Assembly (NCBI GenBank): GCA_039714775.1
Contig: JBDLIQ010000007.1
Location: 613-64,612, forward strand
Direction of reading: 5' to 3'
Source of the DNA: Bacteroidota bacterium
GTDB taxonomy: Bacteria; Bacteroidota; Bacteroidia; Bacteroidales; GCA-2748055
DNA: 64,000 nucleotides
Shown piece by piece: positions 39,294 through 63,679 of the stretch. A program made the translations under genes and the position numbers. Positions within the stretch are counted from its first letter, which is position 1; every line of letters starts with the position of its first letter. The notes beneath the pieces are model-generated. The model saw nothing but the letters and a program-made list of their open reading frames with translations. It had not been told where the DNA came from and searched no databases.

Positions 39294-39324
39294 TTTGATA
39301 ATGAGAATATTCTCATTATATTTG
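39294..39324 (+). promoter_or_regulatory. Promoter (-33 TTTG, -7 TATATTTG) with a perfect 22-bp palindrome ATAATGAGAATATTCTCATTAT
   Basis: Palindrome at 39298-39319 lies between TTTG 39294-39297 and TATATTTG 39317-39324; its core recurs at 61557. Confidence 0.8.
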
Positions 39325-39365: not shown

Positions 39366-40982
39366 ATGCAATATATAAAGAAGTCAAAAAGAGAGTTCCT
39401 GAAGTTACTGTTACTTTTCATTGCAGTGGTACTTCCCTGGATCATCGGGTTCCTGCTGGTAAGAAAAACCGATGAGCAGGTCAGGGAGAGATCCATTCCC
39501 CTTGTAAACTTCAGCAGAGATACCACCCTGAAGGCCGATCACAGCCAGTTTCCCGTTCTTCAGCAAGAGTTTAATGAGCCACAGGAGGTGACCGAAGCTT
39601 GTCTCTCCTGTCACAACAAAACCGCACAGGATGTGATGCGTTCTTCACACTGGACATGGACCAAGGATTACGTGATGGACAGTGGCGATACCATGCAACT
39701 GGGCAAGCAAAACATCATCAACAACTTCTGCATCGGGGTCTCTTCCAATGAATCGCGCTGTACCAGCTGTCACATAGGATACGGGTGGGAGGATGACCGG
39801 TTTGATTTCAATGAAAGCAGGAATATCGATTGTATCATTTGTCATGACCGGACCGGCACCTATAAAAAGTTCCCCACGGGAGCAGGATACCCGGTGACTG
39901 AAGAGAAGAAGTTTGGGGGTCAAACTTTCCTGCCTCCCGATTATTCTAAGATCGCTCAACAGGTAGGAAGTCCAGGCAGGGAGAATTGCGGAGCCTGTCA
40001 CTTTGTGGGAGGGGGAGGAAACAACGTGAAGCACGGGGATATCGCCAACGACCTTGTTGAGATCACCCGAAACGTTGATGTGCATATGGCCGTGGATGGT
40101 GCCAACATGACCTGCACCGAGTGTCACCGGACCGAGCACCACAACATCACCGGGAACCTCTACTCTATTGCATCTGTTAACAACAACAGGGTGACCTGTG
40201 ACCAGTGCCACACAAGCAAACCCCATCAAAACAGCACCCTGAACAAACATGTAAGCAGGGTGGCGTGCCAGACCTGCCATATTCCTGAGTTTGCCAAACG
40301 AACTGCTACAAAGATGTACTGGGACTGGTCCACCGCAGGGAGGCTGGATGAGACCGGGAAACCGCTGGAGGAGCATGACAGCCTGGGTAATGTAACCTAC
40401 CTGGGAAAGAAAGGGTCATTTGTTTGGGAAAACAGTGTGGAGCCTGAGTACTACTGGTTTAATGGACAGGCCAGGCACCACCTGCTGGGAGATCAGGTGG
40501 ATCCGGACAGTCCGGTCCAGTTAAACACCCTGGTGGGGGATTATCAGGACAAGCACTCCCGGATCGTGCCGGTAAAGGTGCACCGCGGAAGGCAGATCTA
40601 TGACCCGGTAAACAAAACCCTGGTATTGCCCCACCTGTACGGCAAGGACAGTACCGCCTACTGGAAGGGATTTGACTGGGACCGGTCAGCAGAAGCGGGC
40701 ATGAAAAGTGCCGGTATGCCATACAGCGGAGAGCATGGTTTCATTGCCACAGAGATGTACTGGCCCATCAACCATATGGTGGCACCGGCTGAGGAATCCC
40801 TGCATTGTTCGGACTGTCACTCCCGTGAGGGACGTTTGAGCAACCTGGCCGGTTTCTATCTTTCAGGAAGGGATCATCATCCACTTATGGACCTGGCCGG
40901 TTTTGCCATGATCATCGCTGCATTTATCGGGGTGATCATTCATTCGATGATCAGGATTAATTCGAACAGGAGGTCATCATAA
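39366..40982 (+). CDS. otr: Octaheme tetrathionate reductase (OTR) family c-type cytochrome
   Basis: Eight CxxCH motifs (CLSCH, CTSCH, CIICH, CGACH, CTECH, CDQCH, CQTCH, CSDCH); ADHSQF, INNFC, GGGGNNVKHGD, WPINHMVAP; N- and C-terminal TM anchors. Confidence 0.9.
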   Translation: MQYIKKSKREFLKLLLLFIAVVLPWIIGFLLVRKTDEQVRERSIPLVNFSRDTTLKADHSQFPVLQQEFNEPQEVTEACLSCHNKTAQDVMRSSHWTWTKDYVMDSGDTMQLGKQNIINNFCIGVSSNESRCTSCHIGYGWEDDRFDFNESRNIDCIICHDRTGTYKKFPTGAGYPVTEEKKFGGQTFLPPDYSKIAQQVGSPGRENCGACHFVGGGGNNVKHGDIANDLVEITRNVDVHMAVDGANMTCTECHRTEHHNITGNLYSIASVNNNRVTCDQCHTSKPHQNSTLNKHVSRVACQTCHIPEFAKRTATKMYWDWSTAGRLDETGKPLEEHDSLGNVTYLGKKGSFVWENSVEPEYYWFNGQARHHLLGDQVDPDSPVQLNTLVGDYQDKHSRIVPVKVHRGRQIYDPVNKTLVLPHLYGKDSTAYWKGFDWDRSAEAGMKSAGMPYSGEHGFIATEMYWPINHMVAPAEESLHCSDCHSREGRLSNLAGFYLSGRDHHPLMDLAGFAMIIAAFIGVIIHSMIRINSNRRSS

Positions 40983-40994
40983 CAAGGAAGGAAA

Positions 40995-42320
40995 ATGAAG
41001 AGAAGAACATATATATACAGGGGGTTTGAACGTTTCTGGCACTGGAGCCAGGCACTGCTCATCTTCTTCCTGGGGTTGACAGGTCTGGAGATCCACGGAA
41101 CCTATACAATCTTTGGTTTTGAGAATGTGGTTAACTGGCACAACTCGGCTGCCTGGGCTCTGCTGGTATTGATCGTTTTTACGATATTCTGGCATTTTGT
41201 GACCGGAGAATGGAAACAGTATATTCCCACCACGAAGTTTCTGAAAGCACAGTTTGAATATTACGTATCGGGTATTTTCAAAGGTGCTCCACACCCCACC
41301 CATAAAACGGTCTATAACAAATTCAATCCGCTTCAAAGGTTCATTTACCTGGGATTGAAGCTGCTGGTTATCCCTGTGATGGTGGCAACCGGGTTTATCT
41401 ACATGTTCTATCTCTATCCCAACAATCCGGTTCAGCTGACGGGACTCACCACGGTTGCTACCGTGCACACCCTGGGGGCCTTTATCCTTCTGGCTTTTGT
41501 GATTGCCCATGTCTACCTAACCACCACAGGTGATAAACCGTTGACGAGCATTAAAGCGATGGTTACCGGGTGGGAGGTACTGGATATAGATGAAAAAGAG
41601 GAGCGGAACAGGCGCCTGGTAGATGCTGTAAACGACAGTGCTGCGGGGTACTACAGAATCGGCAGAGAGGGGGAGATCATGGATGTAAATGAAGCCTGGT
41701 TGCGCCTTTACAAATGCAAGGATTCCAAAAAGATCATCGGACAGCACTTTTCGGTAACGCGGGATGAAAGGCACCGGACCGCGTTGGAAGAGCTGGTTCA
41801 AAAGGTGCTCCGGGGAGAACTGATCACCGGGGTCCCGGTCACTAGAAGATGCATGGATGGCTCCACGGGAAACCACCTGCTCTCAATGAACCCTGTTTAT
41901 GAAGAGGAGCAGATTACCGGGATCGAAGGATTTGTGATTGATATTGATGAATCGGAACCGCCAACCACACACCTGAACTATATTGTGAAAAACAGCAGTG
42001 CCGGGTATTACCGGATCGATTCGGATGGTTTCATTGCGGATGTAAATGATGCCTGGCTGAAGTTGTACAAATATGATGATCGCGGGGAGGTTGTTGGAAA
42101 ACACTACTCCATTACCAGGAACCAGACCGAAACCCGCAAGCTGGATGATACTTTTCATCAGGTGATGCAGGGCGAATTGGTGCCCGGCAAAAGGGTAATT
42201 CGCCTGTGCAGGGACGGGTCGGAAGGCAAGCACCTGCTATCTGCCAATCCGGTCTATGTGGGAAACAGGATTACCGGTATGGAGGGTTTTATTCTGGATA
42301 TTACCGGACTGGATGAATAG
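40995..42320 (+). CDS. PhsC/HyaC-type cytochrome b fused to two tandem PAS domains
   Basis: FERFWHW, TGLEIH, KFNPLQR, HTLGAF..AHVYL heme-b motifs in the first ~200 aa; two ~105-aa repeats with DVN.AW..LY and PAC-like DGS..NPVY..EGF.LDI. Confidence 0.85.
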   Translation: MKRRTYIYRGFERFWHWSQALLIFFLGLTGLEIHGTYTIFGFENVVNWHNSAAWALLVLIVFTIFWHFVTGEWKQYIPTTKFLKAQFEYYVSGIFKGAPHPTHKTVYNKFNPLQRFIYLGLKLLVIPVMVATGFIYMFYLYPNNPVQLTGLTTVATVHTLGAFILLAFVIAHVYLTTTGDKPLTSIKAMVTGWEVLDIDEKEERNRRLVDAVNDSAAGYYRIGREGEIMDVNEAWLRLYKCKDSKKIIGQHFSVTRDERHRTALEELVQKVLRGELITGVPVTRRCMDGSTGNHLLSMNPVYEEEQITGIEGFVIDIDESEPPTTHLNYIVKNSSAGYYRIDSDGFIADVNDAWLKLYKYDDRGEVVGKHYSITRNQTETRKLDDTFHQVMQGELVPGKRVIRLCRDGSEGKHLLSANPVYVGNRITGMEGFILDITGLDE

Positions 42321-42322
42321 TG

Positions 42323-42625
42323 TCAGCCGGTTGAGTCATCCATGCGTGATTCGATCTCTTTGATATGATCGACCAGGAAAGAGGAGTCGCTTCCCGATAC
42401 CGCCCTGATCCACGATTTTAGCCGGAGGTTCTGTTCATATACCTTCTGGCAGCTTTTAGCTTCCTCTTTGTCAGTAATTGTTTCGTTCTGATCATATACG
42501 GATTTTAGCTTATCCAGCAGACGGTCCTTCTCCCGGCACCACTCGGAGTTGCGGTCATCACAACCGCACCGGGCATCTTCAATCCACTTGAACAGACCCT
42601 CGGGAATATATACCCTGTGACTCAT
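42323..42625 (-). CDS. Hypothetical 100-aa protein with four Cys
   Basis: ORF 3 nt downstream of the preceding gene; RCGCDD..WC...SC. Confidence 0.55.
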   Translation of the reverse strand: MSHRVYIPEGLFKWIEDARCGCDDRNSEWCREKDRLLDKLKSVYDQNETITDKEEAKSCQKVYEQNLRLKSWIRAVSGSDSSFLVDHIKEIESRMDDSTG

Positions 42626-42628
42626 GGC

Positions 42629-43339
42629 TTAGAATCTATTATGTATCTCCTCTTTCAGATCATTAAACCTGCTCTGATCGCAGTGCTTGGAGTAGATCCC
42701 AATAAAATCGGTTACCTCCTCTTTTACAAACAGATAGCTTAAAAAGGAGTCAAACAGGTTGAAATCACAGCTCAGCTTAATTTGATCCATGACTGCCTTG
42801 AACTGATCGAAATCTATCCGGTGCGGTGCAGAGAAAAAGTACCTGTTCCTGTTGTTGGCATCCCGGAAAACCCCCTCCTCCACCTTATCGTATTCAATAT
42901 ATTTCTTGTACACCACATGGGCGTTGTCAGCCGGCACTTTTTTATCATTCAGAAATTTGATTCCGGCAGATTCAAATTCTGAGATAAGCAGTGGCAGATC
43001 CTTGCGGTTGTTCACATTGACCCGGATGCACTGGTAGGTGTGTTTGTTAAAGCTGATCTGTCCCGGAAACACTTTGATTGCCAGGCTCTGTTTCTGTCTC
43101 AGGTTGGCTGTTAATCTCAGTACCAGGTCCTGAAAACAGATCACCTGGTTTTTCACAAGCAGGTAAAGGTGCCTGTCTGTCAGATGTTTTTGATTGGGGG
43201 GGAAGTTGTTTTTGGCATAGTAATCGGGCGAAGCGGATGATTCGAGAACCAGTCGGTCGAGTGAACCACTCACTGGTGAACGTGATACATCGGCATCAAA
43301 TTCAAAGCAGGTAAAACCTTCAATTTCATTTTCTTTCAT
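42629..43339 (-). CDS. Hypothetical protein, paralog of 55087..55809
   Basis: 236 aa; shares PxYY, (I/F)RV, (D/W)xxF, NxFD and DF(I/L)xIY blocks with the first gene of the operon. Confidence 0.7.
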   Translation of the reverse strand: MKENEIEGFTCFEFDADVSRSPVSGSLDRLVLESSASPDYYAKNNFPPNQKHLTDRHLYLLVKNQVICFQDLVLRLTANLRQKQSLAIKVFPGQISFNKHTYQCIRVNVNNRKDLPLLISEFESAGIKFLNDKKVPADNAHVVYKKYIEYDKVEEGVFRDANNRNRYFFSAPHRIDFDQFKAVMDQIKLSCDFNLFDSFLSYLFVKEEVTDFIGIYSKHCDQSRFNDLKEEIHNRF

Positions 43340-43403: not shown

Positions 43404-44387
43404 CTAATACCCGGCGTCTGAAAAGTATTTCATGAACTGGGTTCGTTCGTAGAGTACAGGCTGTTTGATGTTGTGCTGGCTGGCGTGTCCCCGGAAGTCG
43501 GCAATGGCATCATACTCGTGCCGTTTCATCCACTCTTTCAGGGTGTTGAGCATCTCTTCGATCACCTTTGGGCCCTCTTTATAAATGGCGGAAACCGTCT
43601 GTACCACCTGCGCTCCCACCAGCAGGTTCTTGATGACAGTCTCTCCGTCATAGACCCCCCTGGAGGCAGCCATGTCCATGCGGATCTTTTCGTAGAGGAT
43701 CCCGATCCAGCGAATGGTCATCACATTCAGCTCTTTGCAGCTATAGATATCCCCGGGGACTATCTTTTCGCGTTCGATGTCCACATCGGGACTGTAGAAC
43801 CTGTTGAACAGGACCACGGCCGATGCTTTGGTCTGTGACAGTTTATGGACAAAGTTGGCCAGCCCCGAGAAGTAGTAGCTGATCTTCAGTGCAAAGGGGA
43901 TGTTGATGGCATCGCTGATCTGCTCGATGATGTCAAAGTAGACCTGCTCCTTCTTCTCGCCGGTCTGGTCGATTTCGGCCGGCAGCAAGAAGAGGTTGAT
44001 CTCCAGTGCATCGGCTCCCGCCTCCTCGATCATCTTGGCATAGTTGGTCCACCCCTCGGCAGAGACGCAGTTAACACTGGCAATAACCGGTATGCTGAGT
44101 GCCTCCTTGTTCTCCTTGATAAGCTTTACGTACTGCGTCAGGTTGTGCTTTTTGGAGTAGTACATGGCATAGTACTCCTGGTCGGAAAATGAACCGTACA
44201 TGTTGTTGAGCCGCTGCTCGTCTACATCATGCAGGATCTGCTCCTCAAAAAGGGATTTAAGCACGATGGCTCCTGCACCCGCTTTTTCGTAAGCGATGGA
44301 GTTTTCAATGTTCTCTGTCAGTCCCGAGCTTCCCACAATGATGGGGCTCTTTAACTGCAATCCCATGTAGCTGGTTGAAAGGTCCAT
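43404..44387 (-). CDS. Dihydroorotate dehydrogenase-like FMN protein lacking the catalytic Cys
   Basis: LSTSYMGLQLKSPIIVGSS, GAIVLKSLFEEQI, LFNRFYSPD, ERTQFMK; ALEINLF in place of ELNxSCP. Confidence 0.88.
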   Translation of the reverse strand: MDLSTSYMGLQLKSPIIVGSSGLTENIENSIAYEKAGAGAIVLKSLFEEQILHDVDEQRLNNMYGSFSDQEYYAMYYSKKHNLTQYVKLIKENKEALSIPVIASVNCVSAEGWTNYAKMIEEAGADALEINLFLLPAEIDQTGEKKEQVYFDIIEQISDAINIPFALKISYYFSGLANFVHKLSQTKASAVVLFNRFYSPDVDIEREKIVPGDIYSCKELNVMTIRWIGILYEKIRMDMAASRGVYDGETVIKNLLVGAQVVQTVSAIYKEGPKVIEEMLNTLKEWMKRHEYDAIADFRGHASQHNIKQPVLYERTQFMKYFSDAGY

Positions 44388-44400
44388 AATAGTTAGGTAG

Positions 44401-46215
44401 TTAGGTAGTTGTTTTTTTTGAATCTTCAAAAAGGAATTCATCAATCCCCCTGGCTGCCTTGTGTCCGTTGGCGATGCCGTGGATCACATCGGGCCCCTGG
44501 ATGATATCACCTCCCAGGAAGAGCCAGGGCACACCGCTCTGGAAATCCTCGTTCACCTTGATCCGTCCCCGCTTGTCGATCTCCAGCTCATGTTTGAGAT
44601 CTTCGGAGAGGTAGGAGAGGTCCATCCCCTGTCCGATCGATTCAACCACCATGCTCCCCTCAAAGAACTTCAGGTTATCCATGTTGCACTGGGGATTGAA
44701 CTTTCCTTCTTCATCAAAGAGGGAGTGGCACTGGGCCACATGCAACCCCTTGATCTTATCGTTTTCGATCTCGATGCGCTGGGGTGCCCATCCGGGATTA
44801 ACCACTGCATCCTCTTCCCTTGCCTCAACCACCTCTTCGCGGTCGGCAGGCATCTTATCTTCGGTCTCAAGGCTGGTGGCAATGATCCCCGCCTTTCCAT
44901 ACTTCTGCTTCTGCAGCCGGGCCAGTGAACGGGTGATGTCCATGGCCACGTTACCACCTCCGATCACCACGATCTTCTCGGCAAGCGGTACCTCTTTGCC
45001 CAGGGTGATGTCGCGGAGCAGGTCGATGGACTGGTGAACATCTTTGTGGTCGCTTCCTTCGATCCGGGTACTGCGTCCCAGGTGGAGACCCGTTCCGGAA
45101 AATACCGCATCATACTGCTCACCCAGCTCCTCGAGTGTAATATCACTGCCCACGTTGGTGTTGTACCTGATCTCCACGCCCAGGGACTCAATGTAGTTGA
45201 TGTCCTTGTCAATCTGGTCGTAGGGAAGACGGTATTCGGGGATCCCGAACCGCATCATCCCACCGGCTTCGGAGAGTTTTTCAAATATGGTGCATTCGTA
45301 ACCCATCAGTGCTAAATAGTGGGCCGCTGACAGTCCGCTGGGGCCTGAACCAATAATAGCGATTTTTTTCCCATTCTTCTCAATGAACTCCGAATTAAGT
45401 ATCTTCTTATACCTGTCTGAGGGGTTCTGATCGGCAATGTATCTCTTCAGCCAGCGAATGGAGAGGGCCTCGCCCCTGTGTCCCAATGTGCAGACTGTCT
45501 CGCACTTATGGGTGCAAATTCGTCCGCATATCTCGGGCAGCGGGTTGGTGTCATACAAGATGCGCAACCCCTCTTCCAGGTCATCGTTGCGGATGGCCTT
45601 GATGTATTCGGGGATGCCCATGTGTGCCGGACAGGTGGCGGTACAGATGCCGCACTCCACACAGCGGTCGGCCTCTTTCTCTGCCTGCTCTTTAGAGTAT
45701 CCCGTTACCATCTCTACGAATGAATCTCCCCGCTTTTCGGGCGAAAGGTGGTCCATGGAGACCCGCTCCAGGTTGTAGAACTCATAATTGGGTTCCGGTT
45801 TTTTCCACCCCTTCTCTTCGCTGTCCCACGGTTTTTCATCCACGCCCGGAATAAACCTGTACTGTTCGGGATCCTCCTCCACCCAGGTATAGGCGTTGGT
45901 GAGGCTGAGTGAGCCTGTGGTACAGATATCGACGCAGAGTCCGCACCAGCAGCAACGGCCATAGTCTACCAGGGGCCTCAGTCCGCTGTCCCCCTCTTTT
46001 GTCTCCACACCCTCTACCGGGACCAGGTCGATGGCCTCATTTTCACAGATGGTTTCGCAGGTGCCACAACCAATGCAAGTCTCAATGTCGTTTTTGTGAA
46101 AACCCCTGTACCTGTCAGCCCCCGGCCTTTCGCCGATGGGATCTTTCAGGGCTACCGGTTTTTCAAAGGCCTTTCTCCAGGCTGTAAAGGGGGAGAATAT
46201 ATCTTTCAGGCTCAT
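44401..46215 (-). CDS. MbsN/NuoI-like 2x[4Fe-4S] domain fused to a GltD-like FAD/Fe-S oxidoreductase
   Basis: YRGFH, CIGCGTCETIC, CCWCGLCVDIC; then RCVECGICTATCP, ICGRICTHKCETVC, GSGPSGL, GGMMRFGIPEYRLP, GGGNVAMD. Confidence 0.9.
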   Translation of the reverse strand: MSLKDIFSPFTAWRKAFEKPVALKDPIGERPGADRYRGFHKNDIETCIGCGTCETICENEAIDLVPVEGVETKEGDSGLRPLVDYGRCCWCGLCVDICTTGSLSLTNAYTWVEEDPEQYRFIPGVDEKPWDSEEKGWKKPEPNYEFYNLERVSMDHLSPEKRGDSFVEMVTGYSKEQAEKEADRCVECGICTATCPAHMGIPEYIKAIRNDDLEEGLRILYDTNPLPEICGRICTHKCETVCTLGHRGEALSIRWLKRYIADQNPSDRYKKILNSEFIEKNGKKIAIIGSGPSGLSAAHYLALMGYECTIFEKLSEAGGMMRFGIPEYRLPYDQIDKDINYIESLGVEIRYNTNVGSDITLEELGEQYDAVFSGTGLHLGRSTRIEGSDHKDVHQSIDLLRDITLGKEVPLAEKIVVIGGGNVAMDITRSLARLQKQKYGKAGIIATSLETEDKMPADREEVVEAREEDAVVNPGWAPQRIEIENDKIKGLHVAQCHSLFDEEGKFNPQCNMDNLKFFEGSMVVESIGQGMDLSYLSEDLKHELEIDKRGRIKVNEDFQSGVPWLFLGGDIIQGPDVIHGIANGHKAARGIDEFLFEDSKKTTT

Positions 46216-46235
46216 GATCGCTCTGTTTAATGTTG

Positions 46236-47426
46236 TTATCGTTCAATTTCCGGTGGACAGGTGGCCAGGGAGACCATGATGGAGGAGACATCTGAGATGT
46301 TCGCTCCCTCCAACAGTTTCTCCAGCAGTGCCATTGCATGGGTATAGCTGGGTCCGCGCAGGTTGATCCTTCTTGGATAGATGGAGCCGTCGGCCACCAT
46401 GTAGAAGAGGTACTCTCCCCGGCTCGATTCGCTCCGTACCAGGGTCTCTCCTTTGGGTACTTTCCAGTGCAATACGTTGGGTGTTTCGGCCCTGATGTCT
46501 CCCTTTTCGGGCATCTTTGCCATGATCTGCCTGAGCAGGTCGATGGTGGTATCCACATCCCTTCGGCGAACATGGAAGCGGGCAAAAACATCCGATTCCT
46601 GTGCGGTGTTAACCCCGAAGTCGAGCTGGTCATAGTAGAGGTAGGGGTAGTCCTTGCGAACATCCCTTTCATAGCCTGCAGCACGTGCAACCGGTCCGGT
46701 GGCACCATAGCGATCGATCCAGTCGGCCGGAACAATCCCGATCCCTTTGGTCCGCTTCTTAAATACTGCGTTTGCATAGACCACCCTGTCCACATCCTTC
46801 ATAAAGGATTCGATCTTCACAAGGTTCTCCTCCAGCCGCGTTTTGAAGCCATCGGGCAGCAGTCCCCTCACCCCGCCAGGCAGGATGTACATGTGGTAAA
46901 CGCGTCCTCCGGTGAGCTCCTCGAACCGGTCCAGAATCAGCTCCCTGTAGTAGAGACCCCACGTTCCCGGCAGTCCGAGCCCGATGGTACCTCCCTGGCC
47001 GGGTACGCTTCTGAGCAGAACCTGCAGTCTTGCCAGTTCCAGTGCCATCATCCTGAGCCATTGGGCCATCTCAGGAACTTCGATCCCCGACAAAATTTCG
47101 GTACCCCGTGCCAGATTGTATTCGTTGGAGTCCGGTTCGGGGACACACATGCGGATGGAGGTGGGGAAGCACTGCATGTACCTGCGGCGCTCGAACAGTT
47201 TTTCAAATCCACGGTGCAGGTAGCCCACATGGGTTTTGGACTCCATGATCTCATCTCCGCTGATGGTCAGCTCGAGCGCCATGTTCCCGGTTATCCCGGG
47301 ATGGTTGGGACCCTGCCACACCTTGATGTACTTCTGTGATTCGAGGTCCACATCCGGTTTCCCATCCTCGTTGAGCCCGGGAAACAGGTTTCTTTCATTC
47401 TTCCAGTTAAATATCTTATTGCTCAT
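46236..47426 (-). CDS. mbxL: MbsL/MbxL (NuoD-like large subunit without NiFe CxxC motifs)
   Basis: GPNHPG, GYLHRGFEKL, RMCVPEPD, C-terminal TCPPEIER. Confidence 0.85.
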   Translation of the reverse strand: MSNKIFNWKNERNLFPGLNEDGKPDVDLESQKYIKVWQGPNHPGITGNMALELTISGDEIMESKTHVGYLHRGFEKLFERRRYMQCFPTSIRMCVPEPDSNEYNLARGTEILSGIEVPEMAQWLRMMALELARLQVLLRSVPGQGGTIGLGLPGTWGLYYRELILDRFEELTGGRVYHMYILPGGVRGLLPDGFKTRLEENLVKIESFMKDVDRVVYANAVFKKRTKGIGIVPADWIDRYGATGPVARAAGYERDVRKDYPYLYYDQLDFGVNTAQESDVFARFHVRRRDVDTTIDLLRQIMAKMPEKGDIRAETPNVLHWKVPKGETLVRSESSRGEYLFYMVADGSIYPRRINLRGPSYTHAMALLEKLLEGANISDVSSIMVSLATCPPEIER

Positions 47427-60644: not shown

Positions 60645-60819
60645 TTTTTTACTTTTTTATGGTTATAGAATTCGTTGTTTTCAAATGAGCTGCAAAAGTC
60701 TGCTATTTTCCTCAGGCCGCCATCAAAACAGGGGTGGAACTCCATAGGTTTTTTTCTATCATTTTACAGGTTTTGAATTATCTTTGGGTGATTTATTACG
60801 TTTTTTGACCATCCATTTA

Positions 60820-61515
60820 ATGACGAATCACAATAGCAATCAAGGAGATAACGGAAAAAAGAATGAGCCGGATTGTTTTCAGTTAATCTCCCGGGAAGAT
60901 TTGGAGTTACTGAGCGAAAACAGAACCCAGCTTACCTATCTGAAGGGGGATACTATTTTTATACAGGGTGCATTTGCCCCCCATGTGCTGTTTATCCAGT
61001 CGGGATTGGTCAAGGTCTATCTCAGGACCGGTCCCACCAAGCAGCAGAATCTCTGGCTGGCCAGAAGTGGTGATTTTCTGGCCTTTGCTTCCATGTTTGG
61101 AGAGAAAGTCTATCCCTATTCGGCCGTGGCCCTGAAAGATGCGGAGCTACTGATGATCGAGATGGAGAGTCTCAGGACACTGCTTAAATCAAATCCGGAG
61201 TTTTCTCTCAGGATCACCTCCAAGAACCATGGGACACAGGCACATCTGCTCGATATCATCACCAATCTCTCTTACAAACAGATGCGCGGTAAACTCGCAT
61301 CGTGCCTGACCTACCTCAATTCCGAACCCTTTCAGCAGGATCAGGCATTCAGGTATCTCTCGCGTCAGGATATTGCCGATTTTGCCTCCATATCGGTCGA
61401 AAGCGTGATCAGGTTTCTGAAAGAGTTTGAGAAGGAGGGGATGATTGCGCTGGAAGGCAAGAACATTACCCTGACCGATCCTCAAAGACTTTCAGAGATC
61501 AGCAAGACCGGATAG
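60820..61515 (+). CDS. Crp/Fnr family regulator
   Basis: KGDTIFIQG, SGLVKV, YSAVAL, HTH SRQDIADFASISVESVIRFL. Confidence 0.92.
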   Translation: MTNHNSNQGDNGKKNEPDCFQLISREDLELLSENRTQLTYLKGDTIFIQGAFAPHVLFIQSGLVKVYLRTGPTKQQNLWLARSGDFLAFASMFGEKVYPYSAVALKDAELLMIEMESLRTLLKSNPEFSLRITSKNHGTQAHLLDIITNLSYKQMRGKLASCLTYLNSEPFQQDQAFRYLSRQDIADFASISVESVIRFLKEFEKEGMIALEGKNITLTDPQRLSEISKTG

Positions 61516-61550: not shown

Positions 61551-61580
61551 TTTGATATGAGAATATTCTCATTATCTTTG
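61551..61580 (+). promoter_or_regulatory. Promoter with palindrome ATGAGAATATTCTCAT (second copy)
   Basis: TTTG 61551-61554, palindrome 61557-61572, TATCTTTG 61573-61580. Confidence 0.8.
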
Positions 61581-61610
61581 TCCCGGTTTTAACACATCAA
61601 AAGAGAACAG

Positions 61611-61928
61611 ATGAAGACAGTGATTACATCAACAGGAAATTCCCTGAAGTCAGATTTCGATGAAAGATTTGGCAGGGCGGATTGGTTTTGTATCCTTGAA
61701 GAGAAGGGAAAAAAAGCAGCCTTTATTAAGAATGAGATGGCCGATGCCACCGGCGGAGCCGGCGTAAAGGCAGCAGAGACGATGGCGGAACTTGGGGTCA
61801 AGAGAGTGATCTCGGGCGATTTTGGACCAAAGGCGAAAGATCTGCTGGAAAAACTGAATATCGAGATGGTGCTCCAGAAAGAGAGCAATGTGACCATTGG
61901 TGATGTCATTTCCGGCATGGATGAGTAA
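61611..61928 (+). CDS. NifB/NifX (dinitrogenase FeMo-cofactor domain) family protein
   Basis: RFGRADWF, GGAGVKAAE, VISGDFGPKA. Confidence 0.88.
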   Translation: MKTVITSTGNSLKSDFDERFGRADWFCILEEKGKKAAFIKNEMADATGGAGVKAAETMAELGVKRVISGDFGPKAKDLLEKLNIEMVLQKESNVTIGDVISGMDE

Positions 61929-61940
61929 TCCGCAAGGATC

Positions 61941-62816
61941 ATGAAAAAAATTGCAGTAGCAAGTGGAAAAGGGGGGACAGGCAAAACTACGGTGGCAGTT
62001 AACCTGTTTCACCAGATAGCAAATGATCACACCGCGAAGGTGGAGCTGGTGGATTGTGATGTGGAAGAGCCAAACGATCATCTCTTCTTTGAAGGGCTGG
62101 AGGTTCGTAAGGAGAAACAGGCCACCCAGTTGATCCCCACCATCGATAACGACAAATGCACCTATTGCAGAAAATGCGCTGAGTGGTGTGAATTTAATGC
62201 CATTGTTGTGATCCCCCCTGCAAAATTTGCAGAGGTGAACCCAAGTCTCTGTCACTCGTGTGGTGCCTGTATTGTTGCCTGTGAACATGGAGCCATCTCG
62301 GAAAACCCGGAGGAGATCGGTGTCATGCGAACCTGTAACACAGGGAACAATGGCATCCTGACCGATGGTTCGCTTAAGATCGGTTCTGCCATGCAGACCA
62401 TGTTGATCAAGCAGGTGAAGGAGCAGGTTTCGGACGATAACGAGGTGGTCATTTTCGATGCACCTCCCGGCACCAGTTGTCCTGTCGTTGAAACAGTTTC
62501 CGATTCGGATTATGTGATCCTGGTAACCGAGCCCACACCTTTTGGATTGCACGATCTCAAACTGACAGTTGAACTGCTCAAAGAGATCAACAAACCGTTT
62601 GGTGTGGTTGTCAACAAAGCCGGACTGGGTGACCGGAAGGTCTATGATTATCTCGAAGAGGAGCAGATCGAAATGTTGGGGGAGATCCCTTTTCAGCTCG
62701 ATTATGCCTCGCTCTATGCAAAGGGGGAGCTTCTGAAACATATTCCGGAAGATGTTGAACCTGTCTACAGGGCGATCGCAGAGAAAGTGTTAAACAGTAA
62801 CAATGCTCATTCATGA
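61941..62816 (+). CDS. MinD/ParA-family P-loop ATPase with an inserted 2x[4Fe-4S] domain
   Basis: ASGKGGTGKTT, DCDVEEPN, CTYCRKCAEWC, CHSCGACIVAC, DAPPGTSCP, TEPTPFGLHDL. Confidence 0.9.
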   Translation: MKKIAVASGKGGTGKTTVAVNLFHQIANDHTAKVELVDCDVEEPNDHLFFEGLEVRKEKQATQLIPTIDNDKCTYCRKCAEWCEFNAIVVIPPAKFAEVNPSLCHSCGACIVACEHGAISENPEEIGVMRTCNTGNNGILTDGSLKIGSAMQTMLIKQVKEQVSDDNEVVIFDAPPGTSCPVVETVSDSDYVILVTEPTPFGLHDLKLTVELLKEINKPFGVVVNKAGLGDRKVYDYLEEEQIEMLGEIPFQLDYASLYAKGELLKHIPEDVEPVYRAIAEKVLNSNNAHS

Positions 62817-63679
62817 AGGAGATAACCATACTTAGCGGCAAGGGGGGGACTGGTAAGACAACCATCACAGCGGCCATCGCATCCATTGCATCCGATGCTG
62901 TTTTTTGCGACAACGATGTGGATGCTGCAGACCTTCATCTGATCCTCGAACCCTCAATCCGGGAGGAGAACCATTACCTGGGATCCTGGGTCGCATCCAT
63001 CGATGAATCTCAATGCAACGGGTGTAACATTTGTCAGGATCAGTGCCGTTTTGATGCCATTCATACCAACGAGAACGGTTTCCCGGAGATCAATCCCCTC
63101 CAGTGTGAAGGGTGCCGCCTCTGTGAAAGACTCTGTCCGGTTGATGCCATCTCCTCGGAGCGCAGTGACCGCAATTTCTGGTATGTTTCAGACACCCGGT
63201 TCGGCACCCTGGTCCATGCACATATGGGACCGGGTGAAGATAATTCGGGGAAGCTTGTGTCGGAAGTGCGAAAAAAGGCCAAAGAGCTGGCTGTGGAGCA
63301 GAACGCAAAATATGTGATTAATGACGGTCCTCCCGGGATCGGTTGTTCCGCCATCTCTTCCGTGACAGGAACCGACCAGGTTCTGATGGTGATCGAGCCC
63401 ACTGTGTCGGGACTGCATGATGCAAGCCGGCTGGTTGAGTTGATCGATAGCTTCTCTATCCCCATGGCTGCCCTGATCAATAAATATGACATCAATCTGG
63501 AGATGACCACCGAAATCGAAAACTTCCTTGAGGAGAAGAAGATACCGCTGGTTGGAAGGATTCCCTTTGATCAGCACATGGTGGAGTCCATGGTGGAAGG
63601 CAAATCAATCGTGGAGTTTGACAGGGAGTCGGAGGCCTCGCAGATCATCATCAATGCATGGAAAGCAGTTAAAAGTTGA
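62813..63679 (+). CDS. MinD/ParA-family P-loop ATPase with 2x[4Fe-4S] (paralog)
   Basis: SGKGGTGKTT, DVDAADL, CNGCNICQDQC, CEGCRLCERLC, NSGKLV, DGPPGIGC. Confidence 0.9.
   Translation: MKEITILSGKGGTGKTTITAAIASIASDAVFCDNDVDAADLHLILEPSIREENHYLGSWVASIDESQCNGCNICQDQCRFDAIHTNENGFPEINPLQCEGCRLCERLCPVDAISSERSDRNFWYVSDTRFGTLVHAHMGPGEDNSGKLVSEVRKKAKELAVEQNAKYVINDGPPGIGCSAISSVTGTDQVLMVIEPTVSGLHDASRLVELIDSFSIPMAALINKYDINLEMTTEIENFLEEKKIPLVGRIPFDQHMVESMVEGKSIVEFDRESEASQIIINAWKAVKS

What the first reader, a model, noticed from the sequence alone, without database searches (positions are those of the whole stretch)
40995..42320. Cytochrome b fused to tandem PAS domains with no output domain, partnered with an octaheme cytochrome
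Seen: a 4-TM PhsC-like cytochrome b (~200 aa) is followed by two clearly duplicated PAS/PAC repeats, and the protein then ends with no kinase, cyclase or HTH domain. Both repeats conserve GxH(F/Y)S and R(R/L)CxDGSxGxHLLS, placing a Cys and His where PAC motifs usually read RKDG..W. Known: OTR genes often pair with a plain cytochrome b quinol dehydrogenase. Inference: the PAS pair may bind heme or flavin, or sense persulfide through the Cys, and so gate electron flow or signal in trans, making this a respiratory subunit with its own sensor.
Basis: partly seen in the sequence, partly recalled or inferred. Interest (0 to 1): 0.75.

Follow-up and report, generated by a model that had tools for sequence, protein, structure and literature searches.

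The report
Respiratory cytochrome b carrying PAS sensors
The membrane cytochrome b that feeds electrons to an eight-haem periplasmic reductase carries two cytoplasmic PAS sensor domains and no output domain, a conserved but unstudied design suggesting that this respiratory branch is switched directly by a cellular signal.

Summary
ORF 40995-42320 (+, 441 aa) is a Ni_hydr_CYTB cytochrome b (residues 8-192) followed by two PAS domains that are 51% identical to each other. It ends with no output domain. It lies 12 nt after a TIGR04315 octahaem (OTR) gene.

The design is a conserved family. 119 of the 120 best database clusters have the same architecture, at 55-83% identity. In 80 genomic loci the OTR-cytochrome b pair is constant, but the cytochrome b carries 0 (54 loci), 1 (12), 2 (13) or 3 (1) PAS domains. 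On a quick tree, PAS-bearing forms fall almost entirely in one clade.

The His/Cys signature is conserved (Cys 86-92%, His 90-100%). It is not special to this protein: the same H-C-H PAS subtype is an input module of many histidine kinases and other signalling proteins. Profile alignment to LOV structures places the signature residues at cofactor-contacting positions, but the LOV motif itself is absent.

Best reading: a quinol-dehydrogenase subunit with a built-in cytoplasmic ligand sensor whose output is the cytochrome b itself. The ligand and the gating are inferred, not shown. No structure model could be obtained. I found no description in print. It is a new variant of a known kind, of moderate interest.

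The parts
39298..39319 (.). Perfect 22-bp palindrome (core TGAGAATATTCTCA) in the promoter region of the OTR-cytochrome b operon; candidate operator
   Evidence: There is a second exact copy at 61558, and these are the only two exact copies in the genome. The core is conserved upstream of OTR in the two nearest relatives, L003 and L004.
39366..40982 (+). Octahaem c-type cytochrome of the OTR family, with an N-terminal and a C-terminal membrane helix
   Evidence: TIGR04315 637 bits against a cut-off of 375; PF11783 E 2e-74. Eight CxxCH motifs; hydrophobic segments at 14-32 and 507-525.
40995..41582 (+). Cytochrome b domain (residues 1-196), four-helix HydC/FdnI/PhsC superfamily; probable quinol dehydrogenase
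   Evidence: PF01292 92.4 bits. H16, H49, H158 and H172 are invariant in 62 relatives and align with His residues of E. coli HyaC, 4gd3.
41583..41636 (+). Short linker and N-cap of PAS1 (residues 197-214)
   Evidence: Mean identity 0.48-0.51 in the family, against 0.72 for the cytochrome b domain.
41637..41951 (+). PAS1 (residues 215-319), with H251, R256, R284, C286 and H294
41970..42302 (+). PAS2 (residues 326-436), with H370, R375, R403, C405 and H413; the protein ends 5 residues later

Best explanation
The gene encodes the membrane quinol-dehydrogenase subunit (a cytochrome b of the HydC/FdnI/PhsC superfamily) of a two-gene, membrane-anchored OTR-type octahaem reductase. Electrons pass from menaquinol through the b haems to the eight c haems. 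From there they reach a periplasmic acceptor, probably an inorganic sulfur compound, with nitrite or hydroxylamine not excluded. Fused to its cytoplasmic C-terminus is a tandem of ligand-binding PAS domains of a widespread sensor subtype. There is no output domain and no C-terminal signalling helix. I therefore propose that the output is the cytochrome b itself: ligand or redox state in the PAS pocket changes how the tandem packs against the cytoplasmic face of the cytochrome b, and so opens or closes quinol oxidation. This would be a post-translational valve added to transcriptional control.

Shown: the architecture, the conservation, the operon partner, and the cytoplasmic side (by the positive-inside rule and family topology). 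Inferred: ligand binding, the identity of the ligand (unknown; the pocket is polar and basic) and the gating itself.
For: 1. Identity of the two genes and their tight linkage. An OTR gene lies directly upstream of the cytochrome b in 78 of 80 loci; the other two lack upstream DNA. Natural OTR-cytochrome b fusion proteins exist: P0271, 777 aa, carries PF11783 and PF01292.

2. The PAS extension is native and under selection. 119 of the 120 best clusters share the architecture. Mean identity is 0.55-0.56 for the PAS domains and 0.72 for the cytochrome b.

3. Copy number varies (0, 1, 2 or 3) on a constant OTR-cytochrome b core. One clade with 99% SH-aLRT support holds 25 of the 27 PAS-bearing rows. 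This marks the PAS tandem as an accessory regulatory module, not part of the electron path.

4. The same H-C-H PAS subtype serves as input in signalling proteins. 108 of 198 domains in the top 150 representative proteins carry the triad. Of 50 proteins scanned, 29 are histidine-kinase type, 2 GerE, 1 SpoIIE and 1 HD-GYP.

5. Profile alignment to LOV structures (YtvA 2pr5, E 4.7e-5; 8c05, E 4e-5) puts H251, S253, R256, R284 and H294 on the positions of the LOV motif Asn, Arg and Gln and of the two strand Asn. That these LOV residues contact the flavin is recalled.

6. 0 of 132 two-PAS family members and 0 of 11 longer relatives carry a kinase or other output domain. The protein ends 5 residues after the last PAS strand.

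7. The three cytochrome b positions that distinguish the PAS clade from plain forms (Y107, N108, F110) all lie in the cytoplasmic loop before helix 3.

8. The genome has no other PAS of this subtype with which to pair.

9. MerR genes lie directly upstream of OTR in most of the 15 plain loci (of 54) that carry one, and are found in 0 of 13 two-PAS loci.
Against: There is no structural model, so which residues face the pocket rests on a weak profile alignment (E about 5e-5) and on recalled LOV structure. No experiment exists on any family member. PAS-only proteins can signal in trans, and nothing here excludes that. The three clade-specific loop changes could be lineage drift. The genome is a 96%-complete, 217-contig assembly, so a partner gene could be unassembled. 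In a phylum-wide sample, 0 of 400 other genomes had the PAS form, while 54 had the plain cytochrome b. The module is therefore dispensable for the core function. The operon also has its own conserved operator, so regulation need not be post-translational.
Confidence: 0.4

Rival explanations
1. Trans-signalling co-sensor. The PAS tandem reports the state of the respiratory complex, or a cytoplasmic ligand, to a separate regulator such as a Crp/Fnr-type factor or a histidine kinase, by protein-protein contact. This would resemble transporters that act as co-sensors for kinases.
For: The PAS subtype is otherwise an input of signalling proteins. There is no output domain. Crp/Fnr genes lie near the pair, mostly divergent from OTR, in 7 of 12 one-PAS loci. 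In this genome the operon has a conserved palindromic operator, shared with an operon that follows a Crp/Fnr gene.
Against: No gene is conserved next to the two-PAS forms: the first downstream ORF differs in all 13 loci. The genome has no second PAS of this subtype for heterodimerisation. No partner has been identified.
Confidence: 0.25
2. Thiol or quinone redox switch. The conserved Cys of each PAS is oxidised by quinones, or persulfidated by sulfane sulfur, as in the PAS cysteines of ArcB and EvgS. This locks or releases the complex.
For: Cys is kept in 113 of 132 PAS1 and 121 of 132 PAS2 copies, and no two-PAS protein lacks both. The protein has only three Cys. The tandem sits at the cytoplasmic face of a quinol-handling protein. 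Relatives lie in sulfur gene contexts. ArcB C180/C241 and EvgS C671/C683 are quinone-dependent PAS switches (PMC8174306, passages read).
Against: Cys is replaced by Asn, Lys, Thr, Gly, Met, Arg or His in 30 of 264 family PAS domains, by Gly in both Calditrichia forms, and by Arg in 44 of 198 domains of the wider subtype. 'No protein lacks both' is about what chance gives (roughly 1.6 expected). By the LOV alignment the Cys lies on the pocket face, not on the outer surface where ArcB-type intermolecular disulfides form. That placement is an inference.
Confidence: 0.15
3. Structural role only. The PAS tandem dimerises or anchors the complex and senses nothing.
For: PAS domains commonly dimerise (general knowledge). 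Related cytochrome b subunits work in oligomers (recalled). Plain forms function without PAS (54 of 80 loci).
Against: The most conserved PAS residues are polar or charged (R284 132 of 132, H294 132 of 132, N232, W235, R256). They align with cofactor-contacting positions of LOV domains and are shared with sensor modules of kinases. A mere scaffold would not need this.
Confidence: 0.1
4. Electron-transfer extension. Each PAS holds a redox cofactor (haem b with His/Cys ligation, flavin, or an Fe-S cluster) that links a cytoplasmic donor to the b haems.
For: His and Cys are conserved in the pocket. PAS domains can hold haem, flavin or Fe-S. NreB [2Fe-2S] sulfide sensing: abstract of PMC13478379 seen in the listing.
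Against: The LOV flavin motif is absent and both flavin-binding Asn are replaced. There is only one Cys per PAS, and it is replaceable. PAS copy number varies from 0 to 3, which suits a regulator better than a wire. The pocket is polar and basic rather than hydrophobic.
Confidence: 0.05

Closest known systems
OTR (octahaem tetrathionate reductase) with an adjacent plain cytochrome b, as found in Bacteroidota, Ignavibacteriota, Acidobacteriota and others
   Same: Same two-gene core. The OTR is 44-73% identical and the cytochrome b domain 56-88% identical across 80 loci, and the OTR gene is directly upstream in 78 of 80.
   Different: The plain forms end after about 203-247 aa (54 of 80 loci). 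They are usually followed by Sulf_transp halves (28) or rhodanese (14). The window's form adds two PAS domains and has none of these neighbours; the sulfur genes lie on another contig.
Shewanella oneidensis OTR
   Same: Same enzyme family (TIGR04315). It reduces tetrathionate, nitrite and hydroxylamine in vitro (PMC4484225, passages read).
   Different: The Shewanella enzyme was purified with the periplasmic cytochromes and interacts with the CymA-fed shuttle STC (PMC4484225, passages read). The window's OTR has membrane helices at both ends and its own cytochrome b.
PhsC / FdnI / HyaC cytochrome b subunits
   Same: Pfam PF01292. The four His align with His residues of HyaC. Four helices with both termini cytoplasmic (the family topology is recalled).
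   Different: Below the equivalog cut-offs for PhsC, the hydrogenase cytochrome b and the formate dehydrogenase gamma subunit. No PAS extension is known to me in those subunits (recalled).
ArcB and EvgS cytoplasmic PAS redox switches
   Same: A cytoplasmic PAS next to the membrane, carrying Cys residues that respond to the quinone pool (PMC8174306, passages read).
   Different: Those PAS domains drive a histidine kinase. Here there is no kinase, and the Cys is replaceable.
LOV / YtvA-type PAS domains
   Same: The best solved-structure matches for the PAS subtype (E 4e-5 to 5e-5), aligned over the full domain.
   Different: The photoactive Cys is replaced by Phe/Tyr. The motif Asn, Arg and Gln are replaced by His, Ser and Arg, and the two strand Asn by Arg and His. 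It is not a LOV domain.
PAS (eag) domain of EAG/hERG potassium channels (recalled, not tested)
   Same: A PAS domain with no enzymatic output that regulates the membrane protein it is fused to.
   Different: Eukaryotic, N-terminal, and on an ion channel. It is an analogy of logic only.

Membership tests
Prokaryotic cytochrome b561 / Ni_hydr_CYTB (HydC-FdnI-PhsC superfamily) | Match to PF01292 above the gathering score | tested here: met
   92.4 bits against 30.1, residues 8-192.
Prokaryotic cytochrome b561 / Ni_hydr_CYTB (HydC-FdnI-PhsC superfamily) | Four conserved His as bis-His ligands of b haem(s) | tested here: met
   H16, H49, H158 and H172 are invariant in 62 sequences and align with His of HyaC 4gd3. 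Actual haem binding was not tested.
Prokaryotic cytochrome b561 / Ni_hydr_CYTB (HydC-FdnI-PhsC superfamily) | Four transmembrane helices with N- and C-termini in the cytoplasm | tested here: inconclusive
   The hydropathy scan finds helices 2-4 clearly; helix 1 falls below the threshold. The K/R distribution fits an N-in, C-in topology.
PhsC (thiosulfate reductase cytochrome b, NF011582 equivalog) | Score above the equivalog cut-off | tested here: not met
   104.9 bits against 204. 'PhsC-like' holds only at superfamily level.
OTR family (TIGR04315) - the partner gene | Score above the cut-off and eight CxxCH motifs | tested here: met
   637 bits against 375; eight CxxCH.
PAS domain (PF00989 / TIGR00229) | Two matches above the cut-off | tested here: met
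   PF00989 48.1 bits against 22.6 and TIGR00229 70.4 bits against 22.9, two stretches each.
LOV (flavin-binding PAS) | GXNCRFLQ-type motif with the photoactive Cys, and the two flavin-binding Asn on strands G and H (motif recalled) | tested here: not met
   In the alignment to YtvA and 8c05 these positions read His, Phe/Tyr, Ser, Arg, Arg and His.
Haem-PAS (FixL / DosP type) | Proximal His on helix F and a hydrophobic haem pocket | tested here: inconclusive
   The profile search gave only weak matches (FixL 8js5 E 0.0047 over a partial stretch; DosP 9cdr E 0.66). H260 on the predicted helix F of PAS1 has no counterpart in PAS2. No model was available.
Sensor histidine kinase or other one-component sensor | HisKA/HATPase, GGDEF, EAL, HD-GYP or HTH output domain | tested here: not met
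   None at E<=0.1. None in the family or in the 11 longer relatives.
ArcB-type quinone-sensitive PAS | Redox-active Cys forming interprotomer disulfides | not testable with these tools
   Cys is present (C286, C405) but replaceable. The chemistry needs an experiment.

The most novel reading that the evidence does not exclude
The PAS tandem is a direct ligand or redox sensor (of the quinone pool, or of a cytoplasmic sulfur or anionic metabolite) that opens and closes quinol oxidation by its own cytochrome b. That would make this the first ligand-gated respiratory quinol dehydrogenase. It would also make the H-C-H PAS subtype, shared with hundreds of kinases, a new sensor class with a defined ligand.
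Probability: 0.3. Interest if true: 0.8.

Novelty: new variant of a known kind. Interest (0 to 1): 0.55.

Why it matters
Respiratory branches are normally regulated by transcription. A sensor domain built into the quinol-oxidising subunit would allow a branch to be switched within seconds, without new protein synthesis.

The family offers natural controls for testing this. The same OTR-cytochrome b core occurs with 0, 1, 2 or 3 PAS domains.

The H-C-H PAS subtype is also an input module of many uncharacterised kinases. Finding its ligand on this small, output-free protein would annotate a large set of sensors.

Finally, the physiological role of OTR enzymes is still unsettled. A sensor attached to the complex could point to the relevant substrate or signal.

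Tried and rejected
- Structure prediction was asked for 16 times. There is therefore no model, no fold search and no geometry of the pocket.
- Complex prediction with the cytochrome b (1-200) against the PAS tandem (201-441) gave 'no answer', score 0.00. It counts neither for nor against docking.
- The look-up of sequencing runs listed no RNA holder, so there is no information on expression.
- A direct sequence search of the PAS tandem against solved structures found nothing at E<=1. The full-length family profile gave only weak hits.
- The protein atlas returned only generic PAS clusters and holds no model.
- I looked for cytochrome b-PAS-kinase fusions and found none among 11 longer relatives.
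- I looked for a separate PAS gene next to the plain forms nested in the PAS clade (L016, L017, L019) and found none.
- I looked for a second H-C-H PAS in the genome and found none.
- 'At least one Cys per protein' is not significant: about 1.6 proteins lacking both are expected by chance and 0 were seen.
- The loose quinone-motif (aliphatic-X3-H-X2/3-L/T/S, from PMC8174306) fits around H251 and H370 by eye. It is too permissive to count as evidence.
- Four literature searches and one on PAS with persulfide found no paper on this fusion. Subscription journals and supplements were not searched.
Full report
**The observation.** The ORF at 40995-42320 (+) encodes 441 aa. Pfam finds Ni_hydr_CYTB over residues 8-192 (E 3.8e-26) and two PAS stretches at 215-319 and 326-436. 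NCBIfam finds the PAS S-box twice. The PhsC equivalog matches only below its cut-off, 104.9 bits against 204. So 'PhsC-like' is right at superfamily level only. No kinase, cyclase, phosphodiesterase or HTH family matches. The gene ends in TAG, and the next two ORFs lie on the other strand and match no family.

The two PAS units are 51% identical over 106 residues, E 1e-41.

The gene 12 nt upstream (39366-40982) is an OTR-family octahaem cytochrome: TIGR04315 scores 637 bits against a cut-off of 375. It has eight CxxCH motifs and a hydrophobic helix at each end.

**A conserved family.** A search of about 5.8 billion proteins gave 599 hits at E<=0.001. Of the best 120, 119 are 422-465 aa long and carry cytochrome b plus PAS families, at 55-83% identity. 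The remaining hit is a 323-aa cytochrome b fragment. Source names are only 'cytochrome b/b6 domain-containing protein' or 'PAS domain S-box protein', from Bacteroidota and Chlorobi MAGs.

Within the family, mean pairwise identity is 0.72 for the cytochrome b and 0.55-0.56 for each PAS. The PAS part is therefore under selection, though less tightly than the cytochrome b.

In an even sample of 400 other genomes of the phylum, 54 have the cytochrome b, but none of their cytochrome b matches extends into the PAS part. The fusion is thus uncommon among species representatives, although it is well represented in metagenomes.

**The genomic core and the variable PAS number.** A scan of species genomes found at least 585 related loci, and I examined the best 80. 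An OTR gene lies directly upstream of the cytochrome b in 78 of them. The other two loci begin too close to the match to tell.

The cytochrome b carries different numbers of PAS domains:

| PAS domains | Loci | Length |
|---|---|---|
| 0 (plain) | 54 | about 203-247 aa |
| 1 | 12 | 329-388 aa |
| 2 | 13 | 438-466 aa |
| 3 | 1 | 641 aa (L073) |

A quick maximum-likelihood tree of the cytochrome b domain was built from 81 rows, with SH-aLRT support only because the careful search did not finish. It splits at 99% support into two sets:
- 28 rows: 14 two-PAS, 10 one-PAS, 1 three-PAS and 3 plain.
- 53 rows: 51 plain and 2 one-PAS from Calditrichia.

The simplest history is one main acquisition in Bacteroidota followed by duplication, a few losses, and a second acquisition or transfer in Calditrichia. 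The root is not established. No separate PAS gene lies next to the plain forms nested in the PAS clade.

Among 11 longer relatives of the cytochrome b part, all are fusions to multihaem cytochromes c, one of them to an OTR C-terminal domain. None has a kinase or a PAS domain. These fusions support a physical OTR-cytochrome b complex.

**Neighbours point to sulfur.** Downstream of plain forms, the first gene is a Sulf_transp (YeeE/YedE-type) half in 28 loci and a rhodanese in 14. Downstream of one-PAS forms it is a rhodanese in 7 of 12. MerR genes occur in 15 plain loci, in most of them directly upstream of OTR, and in no two-PAS locus.

Psr-like molybdopterin, 4Fe-4S and NrfD genes occur in 5 of 13 two-PAS loci. 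Crp/Fnr genes lie near the pair, mostly divergent from OTR, in 7 of 12 one-PAS loci. Two-PAS loci have no recurrent downstream gene.

In the window's genome the NrfD, Sulf_transp and rhodanese genes lie together on another contig, C8 at 37.9-40.5 kb. The otr-cytochrome b pair sits near rpoB and rpoC, an SDR, an MFS transporter and a symporter.

OTR of Shewanella reduces tetrathionate, nitrite and hydroxylamine. It was purified with the periplasmic cytochromes and interacts with the CymA-fed shuttle STC (PMC4484225, passages read). The membrane-anchored form with its own cytochrome b is a different wiring.

**Topology.** The N-terminus is rich in Lys and Arg, the 71-112 loop has six Lys/Arg, and the 142-147 loop is short. 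Together with the recalled topology of FdnI and HyaC, both termini are cytoplasmic. The PAS tandem therefore sits in the cytoplasm, within about 20 residues of the last helix.

H16, H49, H158 and H172 are invariant in 62 relatives and align with His of E. coli HyaC.

**The PAS subtype.** A full HMMER scan of 1.84 billion representatives with residues 201-441 gave 2594 hits at E<=0.001 and 543 at E<=1e-10. In the best 150 proteins my PAS-unit HMM found 198 full domains. At the positions of H251, C286 and H294, 108 read H-C-H and 13 read H-R-H.

I scanned 50 of these proteins against Pfam:

| Architecture | Proteins |
|---|---|
| Histidine-kinase type | 29 |
| GerE (LuxR-type) | 2 |
| SpoIIE | 1 |
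| HD-GYP | 1 |
| Cytochrome b-PAS | 2 |
| PAS with or without PocR, GAF or receiver only (some are fragments) | 15 |

The signature is therefore that of a widespread sensor module, not an invention of this respiratory subunit.

Conservation inside the cytochrome b family, in 132 two-PAS proteins:

| Residue | PAS1 | PAS2 equivalent |
|---|---|---|
| R284 | 132/132 | 132/132 |
| H294 | 132/132 | 119/132 (Gln in 12) |
| H251 | 125/132 | 129/132 |
| C286 | 113/132 | 121/132 |

N232 and W235 are invariant. 82 of 132 proteins have the complete H-R-C-H set in both PAS domains, and none lacks Cys in both. Chance would give only about 1.6 such proteins, so this is not significant.

**Where the signature sits.** A 13-sequence profile of the subtype finds LOV domains as the best full-domain solved relatives: 8c05 at E 4e-5 and YtvA 2pr5 at E 4.7e-5. 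In that alignment:
- H251 falls on the Asn before the photoactive Cys.
- Phe/Tyr252 falls on the photoactive Cys itself.
- S253 falls on the motif Arg, and R256 on the motif Gln.
- R284 and H294 fall on the two Asn of strands G and H.
- G312 falls on the conserved Gly of strand I.

That those LOV residues contact the flavin is recalled knowledge of LOV structures. It follows, by inference, that the signature lines the ligand pocket. C286 lies two residues along the same strand from R284, so on the same face. The pocket has been rebuilt with basic and polar residues, so this is not a LOV domain.

The replaceability of Cys by Arg, Lys or Asn suggests a contact to a polar or anionic ligand. It argues against an obligatory thiolate or thiol switch.

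**How it most likely works.** The tandem has no output domain, and the chain ends five residues after the last strand motif. The only covalent route for a signal is therefore back to the cytochrome b.

The three positions that separate the PAS clade from plain cytochromes b (Y107, N108, F110) all lie in the cytoplasmic loop before helix 3. This is where a membrane-proximal PAS1 could dock.

The genome holds no other PAS of this subtype. It has only four other ORFs with PAS matches.

I therefore favour a built-in sensor that modulates quinol oxidation or assembly of its own complex (0.4). The rivals are:
- trans-signalling to a partner (0.25);
- a Cys-based quinone or sulfane-sulfur switch of the ArcB/EvgS kind (0.15; PMC8174306, passages read);
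- a purely structural role (0.1);
- a cofactor-bearing electron extension (0.05).

**Comparison with what is known.** The OTR-plus-cytochrome b pair is the common form. The PAS extension is the difference. Four full-text searches found no paper describing it. The Caldithrix genome paper only names its Otr gene (PMC5317091, passages read).

Two earlier notes of this scan (e1-3057278, e1-4305943) describe the same design in other genomes and agree with this reading. They are not independent evidence.

- the 0-to-3 copy series on one core;
- the near-single clade of PAS-bearing forms;
- the finding that the H-C-H PAS is a general sensor subtype;
- its mapping onto LOV pocket positions;
- the clade-specific loop changes;
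- the limits of Cys conservation.

**Verdict.** The feature is real and conserved, and I found no description of it in print. It is a new variant of a known kind. Its mechanism is inferred only, and no structural or experimental support could be obtained here. Interest is 0.55.

Noticed in passing
window 39298-39319 and 61553-61581; L003 4150-4200; L004 6285-6310: A perfect 22-bp palindrome (core TGAGAATATTCTCA, 5-N4-5 geometry) sits between -33-like TTTG and -7-like TAnnTTTG elements upstream of the OTR gene. The only other exact copy in the 4.06-Mb genome lies upstream of a NifX-like gene plus two MinD/ParA-4Fe4S ATPase genes (61611-63679), directly after a Crp/Fnr-family gene (60784-61515). 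The core is kept upstream of OTR in the two nearest relatives (twice in L003) but not in the other 69 loci scanned (3 or more mismatches). It is a likely lineage-specific operator linking two operons.
   Followed up: partly
G000 contig C2:49000-61000 (L083): A second, plain cytochrome b (207 aa, 32% identical) lies in a cluster with a DUF5777 beta-barrel, a multihaem cytochrome c (323 aa) and a 934-aa multihaem-cytochrome b fusion. The cluster also holds a double rhodanese, another multihaem protein and a Crp/Fnr regulator. It may be an outer-membrane electron conduit.
   Followed up: partly
G000 contig C8:37921-40484: NrfD (PsrC-like), two Sulf_transp halves and a rhodanese lie in a row, away from the OTR pair that they flank in relatives. 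The second Sulf_transp match contains one in-frame TGA.
   Followed up: no
P0271 (777 aa) and P0272-P0281: Natural fusions of this cytochrome b with multihaem cytochromes c exist. One carries the OTR C-terminal domain PF11783. These are Rosetta-stone support for an OTR-cytochrome b complex.
   Followed up: no
L073 3095-5020: One Bacteroidales MAG has a 641-aa cytochrome b with three PAS domains, all carrying the H-R-C-H set. It sits on a long branch of the tree.
   Followed up: no
window 42323-42625 (-) and 42629-43339 (-): Two convergent ORFs (100 and 236 aa) directly downstream have no Pfam or NCBIfam family above noise. The first downstream ORF in the 13 two-PAS relatives belongs to no recurrent cluster, so no counterpart of them showed up there.
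   Followed up: partly
window 43404-47426 (-): A DHODH-like gene and a 604-aa Fer4_20/Pyr_redox_2 protein (dihydropyrimidine or sulfide dehydrogenase-like) sit next to a complex I 49-kDa-like gene.
   Followed up: no
window 41715-41717 (C241): A third Cys, C241 in helix C of PAS1, is kept in at least 80% of 119 relatives. PAS2 has Tyr at the same place.
   Followed up: no
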